From Eledone cirrhosa (taxonomy: Eukaryota), in contig OZ024740.1 in assembly GCA_964016885.1 (NCBI GenBank), positions 401,698,001 to 401,762,000 of the forward strand: 64,000 nt of DNA. The letters run 5' to 3'. A program made the translations under genes and the position numbers. Every line of letters starts with the position of its first letter. The first letter of the stretch is position 1. The notes beneath the pieces were generated by a model that did no database searches, had not been told where the DNA came from, and was given only the letters and a program-made list of their open reading frames with translations. Shown piece by piece: positions 35,814 through 52,450 of this stretch.

Positions 35814-36680
35814 TACGAGGTGTGTCAGAAAAGTTCCAGGACTGATGTCACAAAAGATTTATTTCAAACCCAAACTTCACACTAAGAGTGTTTTCCTTCA
35901 AAGTAATCCCCCTGGAGTCTAATGCACTTTTCCATCCTTTTCTGCCACGCTTGCATGCACTCCTGGAAGGATTCTTCCGGGATCCTCCGTAGTTCCGTGG
36001 TCACGGCCTTTTTGTTGTCGTCCAAGTCTTCAAAACGGGTCCCCTCCGGGTCGTACTCGAAGATCCATGACTCATCATCGATGATGACTGTCCCTAGAAA
36101 GTCTGGTTCGGTTTTAAGACGCTCGAGGATGTCCTGGCACACTTGCATGCGCCGATCCTTCTGGTCATCGTTCAGCCGCTTTGGCACCATCTTTGCCCAG
36201 ACTTTTCGCATGTCCAAATGTTCAGTGAGAATCTTCCAGACGCTGTCCCGATTCATGCCCAGCTCATTTGCCATCAGTCGAACAGTCAGCCGTCGATCGC
36301 TACGCACCATCTGCCTGATGGGCTCAACGTTGATATCAGTCCTGTTTGTTGAGGGCCTTCCGCTCCTGGGTTTATCTTGCAGCACTCAAAAACACATGAG
36401 CGTGACATCGTCTCATCTCCATACACTTGCTGCAGCAATTCCAGTGCTTCTGACGGAGTTTTCCCCAACCATACCAGAAACTTCAAGTTAGTTCGTTGCT
36501 CTGTACTCATTGCTTGAAGACCTGAAACAGAGGACATGTATATCTAATTATGAAGAAAAAAGTTTGATCGCTGCAGAGAGTTAAGCTTACAGTTACATAC
36601 TCCAGGGGGATTACTTTGAAGGAGAAAACTCTTTGTGTGAAGTTTGGGCTTGAAATAAATCGTTTGTGACATCAGTCCTG
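35814..36680 (-). mobile_element. Mariner DNA transposon, internally deleted, ~105-bp TIRs (right TIR clipped)
   Basis: EQRTNLKFLVWLGKTPSEA, DKPRSGRPST, AKMVPKRL, DESWIFEYDPE, RMEKCIRLQGDYFE; 35843-35918 is approximately the reverse complement of 36599-36680; TA then cgagg. Confidence 0.92.
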
Positions 36681-44168: not shown

Positions 44169-44729
44169 GATAAATCTACCAAGAGTTTACGGTAGTGTCC
44201 AATCCGTATGAAGAACTCAATGTAATCCGGATATCATGGAAAGAAGAGATGCATTCAAAAATCACTTTCGGTGAAAGATAAACGGAATACAGAGTCAAGA
44301 TGAAACATTAAAAAAATAATGAATAAAACAATGAAACAGTTCCTTATGTTAAACAAAAAAAGTTCATTATTTAACGATCGTTTCTAGGACATATATGTGT
44401 TAGAATTGGCATGCATATTCAACAGATCTATGTACAAAATTATACAAAATTATACAAACTATCAAATTTAATATACATACCAACACATATATATGCGCCG
44501 TCTTCAGAAATAATGAAATATATTTATTTATTTCTGAAGACGGCATATATATGTGTTGGTATGTATATTAAATTTGATAGTTTGTATAATTTTGTATAAT
44601 TTTGTACATAGATCTGTTGAATATGCATGCCAATTCTAACACATATATGTCCTAGAAACGATCGTTAAATAATGAACTTTTTTTGTTTAATATAAGGAAC
44701 TGTTTCATTGTTTTATTCATTATTTTTTT

Positions 44730-44737
<8 letters not shown>
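44166..44737 (-). mobile_element. Fold-back element (~210-bp arms) with an HHR carrying a long stem-II insert on each arm
   Basis: 44303-44513 is the reverse complement of 44528-44737; HHR 44363-44517 (-). Confidence 0.85.
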
Positions 44738-44799
<62 letters not shown>

Positions 44800-45010: not shown

Positions 45011-46939
45011 AATATTTTCAAAAATAGCATATATTTTCATTCGCTCTGACAGTAGGCAGATTAACAGTGAGCTGTAATGATTAAGGGTGATACCCAGAAA
45101 CGTTAGTGTCCGCAGTTCTGTTTACAAGCCAACATAAGATCAAGAACGAGGAGGTCATTCTACTGACATGGCTTTAAAAATGAGGCTTGTTTGCATAATT
45201 GCAAACGAATCGAATATTATTATTAATATTCGAAGAACACAGATTACATTTATATATATATCTAGTTTTGCGAGGTTTTCTATATGAAATCGTGTGTCGA
45301 AACAAATATTGTTATATTTGGGGAGGGTCATATTTGTGTAATATTGCCAGAATTAATAACAGAACACACTCACTGTTTGGTTGGTTTTCGCTTCTCGCTG
45401 TCTTTTATATCGGTAATCTAACTTACTCGGTCCTCAATGTTGCCATTGACTGACCGACGGTCAAAAATAATACAGATACAATATAGACACAAACACATAT
45501 ATATAGTTTATCATAAATCATTCGTTGCACATCTGCAACATCGTCAGTGGTGTTATATTTTCCTCCTGTTGTGTTGTATGTCTACGCCATTTTTATTCAG
45601 TCTGTCTATTTATTTATTTATTTATTTGCTTGTTTGTTTATTTTATTTCGTCTTCTTTGCGCATGCGTTTGCGTGTGTGTATAGTGTTATGTTTGCTGTG
45701 TGATGGGTGACTAGTGTGTGTTTATGTGCTTGTTGTTATTGTGCTTGTGTATGTATTTATTTATTTATTTATCTTATTTTATTTTATTTACTTATTTATA
45801 CTTCTCTTAGGTCAGTGTTGTTTGTTTGGGTGTTGTTGTTATTCCATTCATTCTTTCTGTTTAGCTTTGGTCTTCTAATTTCTATTTCACTGGCCTCTCT
45901 GATTTGCCTATCTGCTGGGTCATTTCTATGTTTAGATATTATTCTAATTTCTATGTTGTCTATGTTACCGTCATGTTGTTGTCTAGCATGTTCGTATAGT
46001 ACTGACCCGTTTTTTCGTCCTTTTAGTTCCCCCCAGTGTTGGTCTATCCTTTCACCTATGCTACGAGCTGTCTCACCTATGTATGTTGTTGTCATGTTTC
46101 TGCAAGTACTCTCTGTACATCTTATGCTATAGACTACGTTTCTAGTTTTACAGTTTATCTGGGGGTTCACCTTACATATGATACATTTCCTATTGGTACA
46201 GTGGGTTTTCTTAAAAGGGTAGGTTGTGATATCGTCTACATAACGAGAGTACATGATGAGGTCTATGGAGCTTTCATTAAGGAGATCTTTAAGTCTCCTT
46301 TCCCACCATACCATGAAAAGGTTGGCAACATCACCAGCTATGCTGACGCCGATGGCTGCTCCCTCATTTTGGGTGTAGATTTTCTCGTTGAACTTAAATA
46401 TGTGGCTCTTTAGGGTAGTTTTGCTACTAGCCCCTATTGCATGTGCGCCCATTTTTCTTACCTGATCATTGTTTTGCGGGGTTCGTATAGCTTTGGTCCA
46501 CCCAATCCACCTTCCCATGGGAGTCTTTTTTGCCATTGAGGTTATGGTGGGGGGTCTACCTCTTATAGGTCTACTAGGGCAGAAACATATAAGGTCTTGG
46601 CTGTCTAGGTAGTCAGTGTCGTAGGTAAGTCTAAGTAGGAGGCCCAGTTCGTCTGTGTCGACGTCGCAGAACTCCACCTTACTTTCAATGATCATCTCCA
46701 CACATCTTTTCACAGCAAAATCAATGTTAATGGATGGGTACAGTGACACCACATCCATGCTGCCTATTATGCAGTTGGATAGGCTCCTGTCTTTGTTGCA
46801 CTCACTGATTCTGCTGAGGAGGCCCTCTGTACTGTCACATACATCTGGGGACATCTTGATTATGGGGCGTATAACCATTGAGAGGAAGTAGGAGATCCTG
46901 TAGTTGCTAGCTATATTAGCTCCGCATACGAGTCTTTCA

Positions 46940-49827
46940 CAAAAATACGTTGGAATGCAAAGGTAAACAACAACAACAATAGTAACGGTAGTAGTAATAT
47001 AAACAATAACTCTGAGTATAGAAATAACAGCCATAACTATAACAATAGCAGGAAAGTGAGACATAGTGATAATGGTAATAATACTAGCGATAGACAGAAC
47101 AACAACAACCACAATAATAATAATAATAGAAACATTAACCACAGACACAGCAACAGCGACCTCAGTAGTAATAACGGTAACAATACGAACAACAACAACA
47201 ATAACCACAGTGGTAATAATGGAAATAGTACATGTAGCAACATCAATGATAGACACAACAAAAACAAGAAACATAATATAAGTAACAACCACAATGGTAG
47301 AAATAACAGTAACAACAACAACAATAACGGTGAAGTAAACAACAATACATCTAGCAATCATAACAATAATAATAATGCTAATGATAGAAACAACAACAAC
47401 CACCCTGATAACAATAATAGCAACACACACAACTATGACGATAGATATAATGACAATCCCTTAGAGAAACTATTTTTCAACCCAGCTGACAAAACATATA
47501 AGATGGGTAATATCTATCCTACGAGGTTACCCTTTAATAAAAGAATTTGCATACCACAACAAATAGATGACGAGACAGAGGCACAGTTCACCATAGCTAG
47601 AAATAAGATTAGACAAATAGTAGACAGGTATACTAAGAGACAGAGCAGACCAGAGGCCCAACAACTTGGGAGGAAACCTGTAGAAGGCTTGGTTAGCCGT
47701 AAGCAGCGCGCAAGGGATGGTGAGGTAGTGTGTCTACCCACGGATAAGTCTGGTAGGCTATGCAACCCCACATCACCAATACGAGCGAAATTGCACAGCA
47801 AACACACGATGGGAGAGAAAAAATCCTCAACGCTCACATGATGATGTGGACTGACATCCTAAAGCCAAGCAGATGCACTGCCAACAACTTCCAGGCGTCT
47901 AACAATGCCATACCGCCCTTGTATGGGCTCCGCAAAGACCACAAGACAGTCGACGACCCGACAACAGGACCACCAACAAGACCCGTATACGGAGCTAATA
48001 TAGCTAGCAACTACAGGATCTCCTACTTCCTCTCAATGGTTATACGCCCCATAATCAAGATGTCCCCAGATGTATGTGACAGTACAGAGGACCTCCTCAG
48101 CAGAATCAGTGAGTGCAACAAAAACAGGAGCCTATCCAACTGCATAATAGGCAGCATGGATGTGGTGTCACTGTACCCATCCATTAACATTGATTTTGCT
48201 GTGAAAAGATGTGTGGAGATGATCATTGAGAGTGAGGTGGAGTTCTGCGACGTCGACACAGACGAACTGGGCCTCCTACTTAGACTTACCTACGACACTG
48301 ACTACCTAGACAGCCATGACCTTAGATGTTTCTGCCCTATTAGACATATAAGAGGTAGACCCCCCACCATAACCTCAATGGCAAAAAAGACTCCCATGGG
48401 AAGGTGGATTGGGTGGACCAAAGCTATACGGACCCCGCAAAACAGCGATCAGGTAAGAAAAATGGTCGCACATGCAATAGGGGCTAGTATCAAAACTACC
48501 CTAAAGGGCCACATATTTAAGTTCAACGAGAAAATCTACACCCAAAATGAGGGAGCAGCCATCGGCGTCAGCATAGCTGGTGATGTTGCCAACCTTTTCA
48601 TGGTATGGTGGGAAAGAAGACTTAAAGATCTCCTTAATGAAAGCTCCATAGACCTCATCATGTACTCTCGTTATGTAGACTATATCAATATAGTTATAAG
48701 AACACCCCCAATAGAGAGCACTAACAAGTTTGATTTAGAACGTAGCACAATGGAAAGCATCCAGCAGATAGCTAATTCCATACACCAGAGTATAACTGTA
48801 ACTATCGACTTCCCTTCCAAACACCCTAACAATAGACTACCTGTATTAGACACAGAACTCTGGATTAACACTATAGACTAGAGAGCCCAAATTATCCACT
48901 CACATTATGCTAAACCCATGGCCTCCAAATACCTGATACTCAAAAACTCAGCAATGTCCAGTAGTGCTAAGTTTAATATTCTGATCGCAGATTTGGTACG
49001 AGTGATGAAGAATGTGTCTCGCATGTGCGACCCAACAGAAATGGAAAGACACATCCAACACTTCATCAACCGCATGCAGTTCTCTGGCTACAACCAAAGA
49101 GACAGAGTCAGAGTATACGAAGGAGCCATGGAAAAGTATAAGACCCTCATAGAACTGGACATGAAAGGAATTTGCCCATTATACAGGAGAAAATCATGGA
49201 ATAGCTTAGATAGGGCTAGACATAAGATAGGGAAAGCCACCTCATGGTACGACAACCAGAGATACCAGAGTGTCATGTTTGTGGACGCCACCCCTGGAGG
49301 GAAATTAGCTAACCAGTGTAGAAAGGCCCTGAGAAAGACCCACTTAAAAATAAAGGTGGTAGAAAAGCCAGGAACCACCATAAAAACCCTGATCAGCAAA
49401 ACCTACCCTTTTAAGAAAACCCACTGTACCAATAGGAAATGTATCATATGTAAGGTGAACCCGCGGATAAACTGTAAAACTAGAAACAGTCTATAGCATA
49501 AGATGTCCAGAGGGTACTTGCAGAAACATGACAACAACATACATAGGTGAGACAGCTCGTAGCATAGGTGAAAGGATAGACCAACACTGGGGGGAACTAA
49601 AAGGACGAAAAAACGGGTCAGTACTATACGAACATGCTAGACAACAACATGACGGTAACATAGACAACATAGAAATTAGAATAATATCTAAACATAGAAA
49701 TGACCCAGCAGATAGGCAAATCAGAGAGGCCAGTGAAATAGAAATTAGAAGACCAAAGCTAAACAGAAAGAATGAATGGAATAACAACAACACCCAAACA
49801 AACAACACTGACCTAAGAGAAGTATAA
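46940..49827 (+). pseudogene. PLE ORF (Asn-rich N-terminus, DKSG, RT, GIY-YIG) with frameshifts, one stop and YVDD changed to YVDY
   Basis: ORFs 47056, 47760, 48918, 49528: PTDKSGR, PPLYGLRKDHK, PTRPV, GSMDVVSLYPSI, GAAIG, YIGETAR. Confidence 0.92.
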
Positions 49828-50065
49828 ATAAGTAAATAAAATAAGATAAATAAATAAATAAATACATACACAAGCACAATAACAACAAGCACATAAACAC
49901 ACACTAGTCACCCATCACACAGCAAACATAACACTATACACACACGCAAACGCATGCGCAAAGAAGACGAAATAAAATAAACAAACAAGCAAATAAATAA
50001 ATAAATAGATAGACAGACTGAATAAAAATGGCGTAGACATACAACACAACAGGAGGAAAATATAA

Positions 50066-50109
50066 CACCACTGACGATGTTGCAGATGTGCAACGAATGA
50101 TTTATGATA
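50066..50109 (+). ncRNA. Degenerate or variant HHR in the PLE B 3' UTR
   Basis: CUGACGA u guugca-gaug-ugcaac GAAU; stem II covaries with element A; stem I weak. Confidence 0.55.
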
Positions 50110-50304
50110 AACTATATATATGTGTTTGTGTCTATATTGTATCTGTATTATTTTTGACCGTCGGTCAGTCAATGGCAACATTGAGGACCGAGTAAGTTAG
50201 ATTACCGATATAAAAGACAGCGAGAAGCGAAAACCAACCAAACAGTGAGTGTGTTCTGTTATTAATTCTGGCAATATTACACAAATATGACCCTCCCCAA
50301 CTAT

Positions 50305-50377
<73 letters not shown>

Positions 50378-50744: not shown

Positions 50745-52450
50745 CAGTTCAGAATTATAACTTCTTTAAAAACGGCAAACGTTTTGCGTTTTATTGTTCG
50801 TTTTGGTGAAAGTAGTGATGTAGAAAGATGAGTGTGTAAAAGTTAGTGAAAATGTCCTTGTATTCTGTTGTGCAGTTGCCGTTTCTCTGGATCGATGTAG
50901 TTGAATTTGCATGCACAGTTCGCCTCAAACACCACATGGTCTCTCAGGGTTATTGGTTTTGTATTGCTGTTTTTAATTCCTGTGGTTGTATATTGGGCAT
51001 CTCAAAATGCAGCAGGTGTCTTCTTCGATGCTTTGCATGAAATGTTGTCTCAACGTCCACCCCACACCTCATTACTCGCATTTGGAGACCTGATCTCTTG
51101 ATCCAGTTTCTCTGTTGATTTTCTGTCTGTTCTCCTTGGTATGGCAGATTAATGTAGACCCAGGTTTTTCCTTTATTCTCTCGTTACTTTCTCACTTTTT
51201 CTTTCTTCTTGTTGGTGTAATGTCTTACATCATTGTTGTTGGTCTTCGGTACTTGTGGTTGCTATTAGAACTATGGGTGGTGGTTGGTGTTGGCATGCGG
51301 TGCTGTTTCCGAAAGTTGTTTTGTAGGAATTTGCTAGGGTTGCCTCGTCGCATTTGTCCATGTGGCGTATGAGTTCATCCTTGGCCACGTGATGTTTTAG
51401 ATTTTGTGGATATGTTGAGTCTGGCTTCCTTCTCATAGGAGCTGATATTGGCCTTTCCTGAAGCTAGGGATAGGGTTGTCGGATGTTTGGTGTTGAATTT
51501 GATTGTGTTGTGTAGTTCATTAGATATTTCATATATTTCCACCGCCTCCTCCCAAGAATGGGCTAGCGCTGGTGTGTCATCTACATATCTCTGGTAGAAC
51601 GTGATGTCACGTCCGGAGTATAGAGCTCTTCTTTCCTGGCTATCCGTCATTAGTGTTGTCAGGGTACCGCTAAACCGGGAGCCTCTCGGAAGTCTACTGG
51701 CTTGATTGTACGTGGTGTTGTTGGTAGAAAGTACCAGGAACGTGTTGAGGCTTGCTCATGGAAAGCCTGCTTCAAGACCCTGTCCTTCCTCTAGGCGCTG
51801 TTTAACTGAGGGTATGGCCTCTGCTGGTGGTATGCTGGTATACATGGAGCTTCAATCAAGGCTAAATGCATATTTATTATTTTCGATTATCTTATTGGGT
51901 ATTTTTGGAAGGAGTTCGATATGCTGCCGGCTATTTTCGTGGTGTGCTGGTATGTGTACAATTAAAGGTTTTAGTAGCCTTGATAGGAGCAATTCGGAGG
52001 ATGTCATAATTGTGGTTGTGTTGTTGTTGCTGTTTGAATTGTGTGGTGTTTGTGTTACTGTATGATTGTGTATTGATATTGTGCATGGTGTTTACGGCGT
52101 TGTTTATATTGTGAAGGCTTTGTCTTTGCCGTATCTTGTGCCCTTTTTTTTCTGGTTTAGTGTGTTGTCTGTTTTGGGATCGGCAAAGGAGGCGTTCGGA
52201 TTTGGTATTCGATTTTGATTGGTAGTGCTTGACGTGTCATGTGATTCATTTCCTTTATTAAGTGTGGGGTGAACATTCGTCAATTGATGGGTGCGCGGGA
52301 GATTTTCTTGTTGGGGTGATGGAACTTTTACATTTTACTAGAATCATCTTGTTGCTGATATACTTGCGGTTGTTCGATTTTTAAGAAGACATGAGATTTT
52401 CCAGGTGTTTTAGATATTGTCGTCTTACGTGGTGCAGATTTGCCAGTATG
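50745..52450 (-). pseudogene. Decayed canonical PLE (RT plus GIY-YIG)
   Basis: Minus: FSLD*SSMYTSIP...YNQASRLPRGSRFSG...YQRYVDDT...LHNTIKF; VVFEANCACKFNYID...LHNRIQGH. Confidence 0.8.

What the first reader, a model, noticed from the sequence alone, without database searches (positions are those of the whole stretch)
48150..48570. C-terminal-endonuclease PLEs with a long insertion-in-fingers-like segment
Seen: about 131 aa separate the motif A Asp (DVVSLY) from GAAIG in element B, with conserved ELGLLL, CPxR--RGRPPTITS and RWxGW also present in element A. The decayed PLE at 51.7-51.9 kb has about 55 aa. Established: an IFD is typical of telomerase and was reported for N-terminal-EN PLEs (Naiad/Chlamys), not canonical ones. 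Here it co-occurs with a C-terminal GIY-YIG, a Cys-rich linker and an HHR. Inference: a distinct or poorly described PLE lineage.
Basis: partly seen in the sequence, partly recalled or inferred. Interest (0 to 1): 0.7.

Follow-up and report, generated by a model that had tools for sequence, protein, structure and literature searches.

The report
Penelope-like clade with novel finger insert
This jumping gene and many relatives from marine animals carry a conserved extra piece of about 70 amino acids in their reverse transcriptase, at the spot where telomerase has its own insert; the piece is predicted to fold differently from the telomerase one, so it likely arose independently and likely marks a large branch of these elements that we did not find described.

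Summary
Observation confirmed: 131 aa from motif A Asp to motif B, against 58-64 in ordinary Penelope-like elements (PLEs) and 82-87 in Naiads. The window copy is dead, but belongs to a young, high-copy family with intact 1,210-aa ORFs, tandem/inverted layout, pLTR, hammerhead core and (TA)n ends. [quoted passage not shown] With the insert removed, they form one long-stemmed clade (100/100) that joins Nematis-like PLEs (98/99); a link to Naiad is not rejected (AU p 0.22-0.26). The insert is predicted to be helices plus a basic loop, without the beta-sheet of the telomerase IFD, so 'IFD-like' holds for position only. Best reading: an independently gained, likely nucleic-acid-binding module marking a Nematis-related lineage absent from the papers searched; Repbase and Arkhipova 2006 could not be checked. 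The scan noted this before on other DNA of this genome (e1-9508900). New variant of a known kind; interest 0.5.

The parts
48231..48443 (+). The insert proper (about 70 aa) between the two finger helices of the RT of element B
48159..48566 (+). Motif A Asp to motif B (GAAIG), 131-aa spacing
46931..50312 (+). Element B, 5'-truncated direct copy (from about aa 238 of the intact ORF through EN and pLTR); defective
   Evidence: 94% to intact copy L013
45263..46936 (-). Element B, inverted partial copy with an internal deletion between motif C and the linker; carries a second copy of the insert (46348-46755) and ends with the longer 'tail'
48669..48683 (+). RT motif C, RYVDY in this copy (RYVDD in intact copies)
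49425..49824 (+). Short Cys linker (CX4CxxC-7aa-C) and GIY-YIG endonuclease with CCHH residues; frameshift near 49487
49701..50312 (+). pLTR region of B (approximate start), containing the first codons of the ORF, ending in (TA)n
50069..50108 (+). Hammerhead core of B (GAAT variant in this copy); mirror copy at about 45510-45549 on the minus strand
19848..21975 (+). Element A, 5'-truncated direct copy of a sister family (70% DNA identity to B); insert at 19906-20118
19006..19851 (-). Element A, inverted 3' part
21717..21761 (+). Minimal type I hammerhead of A; mirror copy at about 19168-19212 on the minus strand
51693..51857 (-). Decayed short-spacing PLE (comparison only; related to Nematis-like families of this genome)

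Best explanation
This is a dead copy of a young Penelope-like retrotransposon family whose reverse transcriptase carries a conserved 70-residue insert that likely arose once, independently of the telomerase IFD, at the base of a large marine lineage likely related to Nematis, and that is predicted to form a small helical module with a basic loop that likely grips the RNA-DNA duplex. The element would move as other PLEs do: the C-terminal GIY-YIG nicks (TA)n DNA, the RT primes on the nick, starts at one of two sites in the pLTR and jumps templates, leaving tandem and inverted copies. Shown: spacing, conservation, domain order, layout, (TA)n ends, recent spread, monophyly. Predicted: the fold. 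Inferred: independent origin, Nematis kinship, nucleic-acid binding.
For: Spacing 130-134 in 59 of 61 scorable hits of 106, 129-138 in 79 of 80 scorable of 84, 120-162 in 67 scorable of 144, against 58-64 in 112 scorable of 120 other PLEs and 82-87 in 8 Naiad segments. Insert columns conserved over 124 rows: E 98%, G 91, L 96, C 94, P 89, R 97, G 95, P 98, R 98, W 96. An insert-only profile hits 84 of 84, 85 of 106 and 86 of 144 family proteins, 0 of 120 short-spacing PLEs and 0 of 19 Naiad segments. Loop net charge averages +5.3, helical part -4.3. AlphaFold pLDDT 91.8 and 89.4: helices and loop, no strand of 3 or more residues in the insert when folded alone. Whole RT matches TERTs best (Z 14.8, rmsd 3.5, 276 aligned). 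Trees without the insert: clade 100/100; with Nematis-like rows 97/96, 98/99, SH-aLRT 90 and 94 under the mixture model. The short linker (6-11 residues in 32 scorable of 84, against 23-24 in 3 Neptune rows) matches the Nematis rows of Fig. S2. 14 of 14 terminal ends run into (TA)n, 11 of them at two fixed points. 150 of 150 scored matches are 97-100% identical, many in 1,216-1,217-aa frames.
Against: AU tests do not reject insert clade + Naiad (p 0.22, 0.26; with decayed Naiad fragments p 0.64 and a higher likelihood). The stem is long (1.1-2.1). 'Nematis-like' is my label from motifs; no named Nematis, Athena, Coprina, Chlamys or TERT sequence was in any tree. No function of the insert was tested, and its position relative to the duplex in the model could not be inspected. 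The basic loop is shortened or changed in the most divergent members (e.g. P0538, spacing 120). DKS and GG[AP]IG differ from the Nematis-like rows.
Confidence: 0.62

Rival explanations
1. The insert is a true IFD, inherited from the PLE-TERT ancestor and remodelled; the lineage branches near Naiad/Chlamys or deeper, and its grouping with Nematis-like rows is an artefact or reflects endonuclease exchange.
For: Same position and similar length to TERT (118 in human, 152 in Tetrahymena, my counts from Fig. S1); AU tests do not reject a union with Naiad; PMC8557442 allows repeated IFD loss.
Against: Predicted all-helical plus loop against a three-strand centre in TERT; insert profile scores 0 of 19 Naiad segments; all free trees with intact Naiads keep them apart; linker and endonuclease are Nematis-type.
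Confidence: 0.13
2. The lineage is already catalogued (for example as Repbase 'Penelope' or Nematis families, or in Arkhipova 2006) and the insert is a known quirk of a described subclade.
Against: [quoted passage not shown]
Confidence: 0.2
3. The insert is a protein-protein module (dimer contact or docking site for the element's own N-terminal or endonuclease domain) rather than a nucleic-acid clamp.
For: Conserved hydrophobic ELGLYL helix and acidic helical part; a Poseidon ORF is predicted to dimerise (PMC11167929); TERT IFD-TRAP contacts TEN and TPP1.
Against: The most conserved loop residues are Arg, Gly, Pro and Trp in a net basic stretch.
Confidence: 0.25

Closest known systems
Nematis clade of C-terminal EN+ PLEs (PMC8557442 Figs 1, S1, S2)
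   Same: Single ORF with RT then short CX2-5CxxC linker then CCHH GIY-YIG; RT groups with Nematis-like sequences; pLTR, hammerhead, tandem/inverted copies.
   Different: A-B spacing 120-162 instead of about 61; DKS instead of DKG; motif B GG[AP]IG instead of GL[AP]MG; long stem branch; longer ORF (1,210 aa, with an Asn-rich stretch in family B).
Naiad/Chlamys PLEs (PMC8557442)
   Same: Extra sequence between motifs A and B; (TA)n preference; pLTR layout.
   Different: Endonuclease is C-terminal; insert is about 70 aa not about 20-25, and unrelated by profile; DKS not DKA; a recognisable hammerhead is present.
Telomerase IFD (IFDa, IFD-TRAP, IFDc; PMC9958494)
   Same: Position between the two finger helices, comparable length; whole RT fold closest to TERT.
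   Different: TERT centre is three beta strands that pair with TEN; here helices plus a basic loop are predicted, and there is no sign of a TEN domain (not tested by folding the N-terminus).
Hydra clade (PMC8557442)
   Same: Marine invertebrate C-terminal EN+ clade, (TA)n targeting, hammerheads.
   Different: Hydra has no IFD, lacks CCHH, has DKT and CxCX5C; Hydra-like elements of this genome are a separate long branch.

Membership tests
Penelope-like elements (EN+) | Telomerase-like RT | tested here: met
   Model matches TERTs best: Foldseek ranks 1-5, VIA Z 14.8 rmsd 3.5 over 276
Penelope-like elements (EN+) | GIY-YIG endonuclease in the same ORF | tested here: met
   Intact 1,217-aa frames; PF01541 over cut-off in P0065, weaker in others; invariant Y, G, R, E, N
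Penelope-like elements (EN+) | pLTRs, tandem/inverted copies, 3' tail | tested here: met
   Tandem period about 4.13 kb, inverted partial copies, two end points about 44 nt apart
Penelope-like elements (EN+) | Hammerhead motif in the pLTR | tested here: met
   Minimal type I motif in A; core with short helix I in B, like the variant described in PMC4209133. Cleavage not testable; Rfam listed no hammerhead in L013
Nematis | Reduced CX2-5CxxC linker and CCHH, C-terminal EN | tested here: met
   Four linker/EN Cys in 61-62 of 62 rows, His in 60 of 60; spacer 6-11 residues
Nematis | No insertion between motifs A and B; DKG motif | tested here: not met
   Spacing 131; DKS in 20 of 20 rows that reach it
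Nematis | RT falls in the Nematis clade | tested here: inconclusive
   Joins motif-labelled Nematis-like rows (98/99; 94); nested or sister unresolved; no named reference available
Naiad/Chlamys | N-terminal endonuclease | tested here: not met
   EN motif after the RT in 219 of 272 insert-bearing proteins, only before it in 1, not seen in 52
Naiad/Chlamys | DKA motif and IFD about 20 aa longer than canonical | tested here: not met
   DKS; spacing 131 against 82-87
Naiad/Chlamys | RT groups with Naiad | tested here: inconclusive
   Free trees separate them, AU p 0.22 and 0.26; no Chlamys in the trees
Neptune | Long Zn-finger linker; RT clade | tested here: not met
   Spacer 7 against 23-24; separate 100/100 clade
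Hydra | No CCHH, DKT, CxCX5C, no IFD | tested here: not met
   CCHH present, DKS, CX4CxxC, insert present
TERT IFD | Located between motifs A and B', flanked by two helices | tested here: met
   Helices 256-269 and 341-360 flank the insert in the model
TERT IFD | Central three-stranded beta region (TRAP) | tested here: not met
   Predicted secondary structure only: helices and loop against PMC9958494
TERT IFD | Structural overlay on IFD-TRAP | tested here: inconclusive
   Fold searches with the insert model; see Tried and rejected
TERT IFD | Supports repeat-addition processivity / duplex handling | not testable with these tools
   Needs biochemistry

The most novel reading that the evidence does not exclude
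These elements are a ninth major PLE clade, as deep and diverse as Neptune or Hydra and abundant in marine animals, that has independently evolved a helical substitute for the telomerase IFD which clamps very short (TA)n primer-template duplexes and drives repeated template jumps; it would be a simple, young, single-protein model for how telomerase-like processivity is gained.
Probability: 0.3. Interest if true: 0.72.

Novelty: new variant of a known kind. Interest (0 to 1): 0.5.

Why it matters
PLE RTs are the sister group of telomerase, and the IFD has been used as a link between them. A third, apparently unrelated insert at the same site, kept across a whole clade, would show that this site is a repeated point of innovation and that position alone is not evidence of homology. 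The clade is also easy to miss: Pfam RVT_1 stayed below its cut-off for all 17 proteins scanned, so many copies are probably unclassified in marine genomes. Intact young copies make the role of the insert directly testable with the published in vitro PLE assay.

Tried and rejected
Fold searches with the insert alone: Foldseek gave no match at E <= 0.001; VIA over 48,161 chains gave best Z 5.6, rmsd 5.5, 60 aligned, to unrelated helical proteins, with no TERT IFD region among the 50 rows. This shows neither a new fold nor a different one. Profile comparison of the family alignment with one Naiad A-B segment found nothing in the insert (weak test). Sequence search of PDB gave only weak RT matches. 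Rfam gave only microsatellite-driven microRNA matches. Sequencing runs: no RNA holder listed; no reads were laid. Intact Naiads were not found in the own genome (empty; 65, 71, 76 decayed copies only) or in viral contigs; they came from host-contaminated MAGs. Trees with the decayed Naiad fragments were unstable and were replaced; three rows (P0407, P0424, P0409) failed motif parsing and the Hydra row was left out. The careful mixture tree did not finish. The hammerhead scan of metagenome loci stopped on a script error after 11 of 22 loci with one candidate, so hammerheads in distant relatives are not established. The 1,921 clusters at E <= 1e-30 are not a clade size, since other PLEs may be included. 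Rejected: chance or assembly artefact (many independent copies and species); a Zn-finger role for the insert (only one conserved Cys); an octopus-specific insertion.

Full report
Observation. In element B the motif A Asp (48159) and the first Gly of GAAIG (48552) are 131 residues apart; the inverted partial copy gives the same, and element A has the same YPS-to-G distance of 126 and the same motifs. The decayed PLE gives 54 by my count; its intact relatives give 61. From the rows of Fig. S1 of PMC8557442 I count 61 for Drosophila Penelope, 118 for human TERT and 152 for Tetrahymena TERT; fetched Naiads give 82-87 in 8 segments. The excess is thus about 70 residues.

The locus. B is a 5'-truncated direct copy (46931-50312) preceded by an inverted, internally deleted copy (45263-46936); A has the same layout at 19006-21975. 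The B copy is dead: RYVDY, a stop at 48879 and frameshifts. The genome (3.0 Gb; nearest named protein is from Octopus vulgaris, 66% identical to A) holds many near-identical copies: all 150 scored of 16,309 candidates were 97-100% identical for B, all 150 scored of 10,049 were 98-100% for A; these are not copy numbers. Eleven of 12 fetched loci held a 1,216-1,219-aa frame with the same start, in tandems of about 4.13 kb. The ORF has an N-terminal region, an Asn-rich stretch, DKS, the RT, thumb, CX4CxxC linker and a CCHH GIY-YIG. Of 29 pLTR ends printed, 15 continue into an ORF and 14 are terminal; all 14 run into (TA)n, 5 at one point and 6 at a second point 44 nt further, the PLE 'tail' pattern (tail mechanism from passages of PMC11167929). 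A has a minimal type I hammerhead; B has the core with a short helix I, and the window copies carry GAAT for GAAA.

Relatives. A single-sequence search gave 106 proteins, the profile 526 of which 120 were listed, and the search of 50%-identity representatives listed its best 150. Spacing was 130-134 in 59 of 61 scorable of 106 (two outliers, 203 and 91), 129-138 in 79 of 80 scorable of 84 (one outlier, 383) and 120-162 in 67 scorable of 144; unscored rows were fragments or missed by my pattern. A control set of 120 PLEs found with a short-spacing element gave 58-64 in 112. Named hosts: Octopus vulgaris, Holothuria leucospilota, Stylophora pistillata and Sanderia malayensis; most hits are unnamed metagenome proteins, and 51 metagenome loci were fetched. 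The insert keeps near-invariant residues over 124 rows; its loop is basic, its helical part acidic, and an insert-only profile hit 0 of 120 control PLEs and 0 of 19 Naiad segments. The endonuclease motif lay after the RT in 219 of 272 insert-bearing proteins with motif C, only before it in one (P0493, which looks like read-through from a tandem neighbour), and was not seen in 52.

Structure. The RT-EN model (pLDDT 91.8, pTM 0.90) matches telomerase RTs best. The insert lies between helices 256-269 and 341-360 and is predicted as helices, an Arg/Pro loop and two short helices; folded alone (pLDDT 89.4) it has no strand of three or more residues. The TERT IFD centre is described as three beta strands (passages of PMC9958494). 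So the resemblance is one of place and size.

Phylogeny, with the insert removed. The insert-bearing rows are one side of a 100/100 branch with a long stem in every tree (30 rows; 13 rows; 10 rows). They join Nematis-like rows at 97/96 and 98/99 under LG+G4 and at SH-aLRT 90 and 94 under the mixture model, apart from Neptune, Penelope/Poseidon-like, Hydra-like and Naiad rows. Against this, AU tests did not reject a union with six Naiads (p 0.22; 0.26), and with decayed Naiad fragments the forced tree scored higher (p 0.64). Group labels come from motifs compared by eye with Figs S1 and S2, not from named references; Athena, Coprina, Chlamys and TERT were absent. The short linker agrees with Nematis.

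How it most likely works. Shown: anatomy, recent spread, (TA)n ends. From established PLE biology (PMC8557442, PMC11167929): nicking by GIY-YIG, target-primed reverse transcription, internal initiation, tandem and inverted products. Inferred: the insert is a folded accessory module on the fingers whose basic loop holds the primer-template duplex, doing by convergence part of what the IFD does in telomerase (about 0.5 given the lineage claim); a protein-contact role is the main rival.

Literature. PMC8557442: abstract, passages, sections 11, 12, 19, and supplement parts 1, 53, 54, 55 of 59 plus term searches; its tree figure is a picture I could not see. 10.64898/2026.07.22.740005: part 1 of 5 and passages, which repeat the eight clades; its supplements were not read. 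PMC11167929, PMC3846280, PMC9958494, PMC4209133: passages. Arkhipova 2006 was not held; Repbase and Dfam are not available. The searches listed no paper describing this lineage.

Verdict. Real, conserved and clade-defining; a new variant of a known kind of element, probably a large Nematis-related branch, with an insert that is probably not the telomerase IFD. Interest 0.5, held down by unresolved placement, no functional data and possible prior cataloguing in Repbase.

Noticed in passing
window 46950-47450; L013 about 2080-2570: Family B has an in-frame Asn-rich stretch of roughly 165 aa N-terminal to the RT; Asn-rich inserts were reported for rotifer Penelope ORFs (PMC3846280).
   Followed up: partly
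L035, L036, L055-L058, L078, L135-L148: The genome holds at least five PLE types: this insert clade, Nematis-like, Neptune, Hydra-like (DKT) and decayed Naiads.
   Followed up: partly
L150-L169 (genome contigs): Several bacterial and archaeal MAGs contain Naiad retroelements, which points to host-animal contigs in those bins.
   Followed up: no
window 25594-26226: A third, more diverged pLTR-like fragment related to A and B (65-85% identity).
   Followed up: no
window 43995, 58368 (+) and 58626 (-): Further hammerhead-like cores outside elements A and B.
   Followed up: no
window 44300-44739: A 440-base near-perfect palindrome just left of element B.
   Followed up: no
window 35882-36385 (-) and 5821-6791 (+): Fragments resembling a mariner-type transposase and a LINE RT (recalled resemblance).
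   Followed up: no
P0482, P0515, P0477, P0481, P0575: Divergent members of the clade carry long charged or low-complexity tails after the endonuclease, and some a second long insert before motif A.
   Followed up: no
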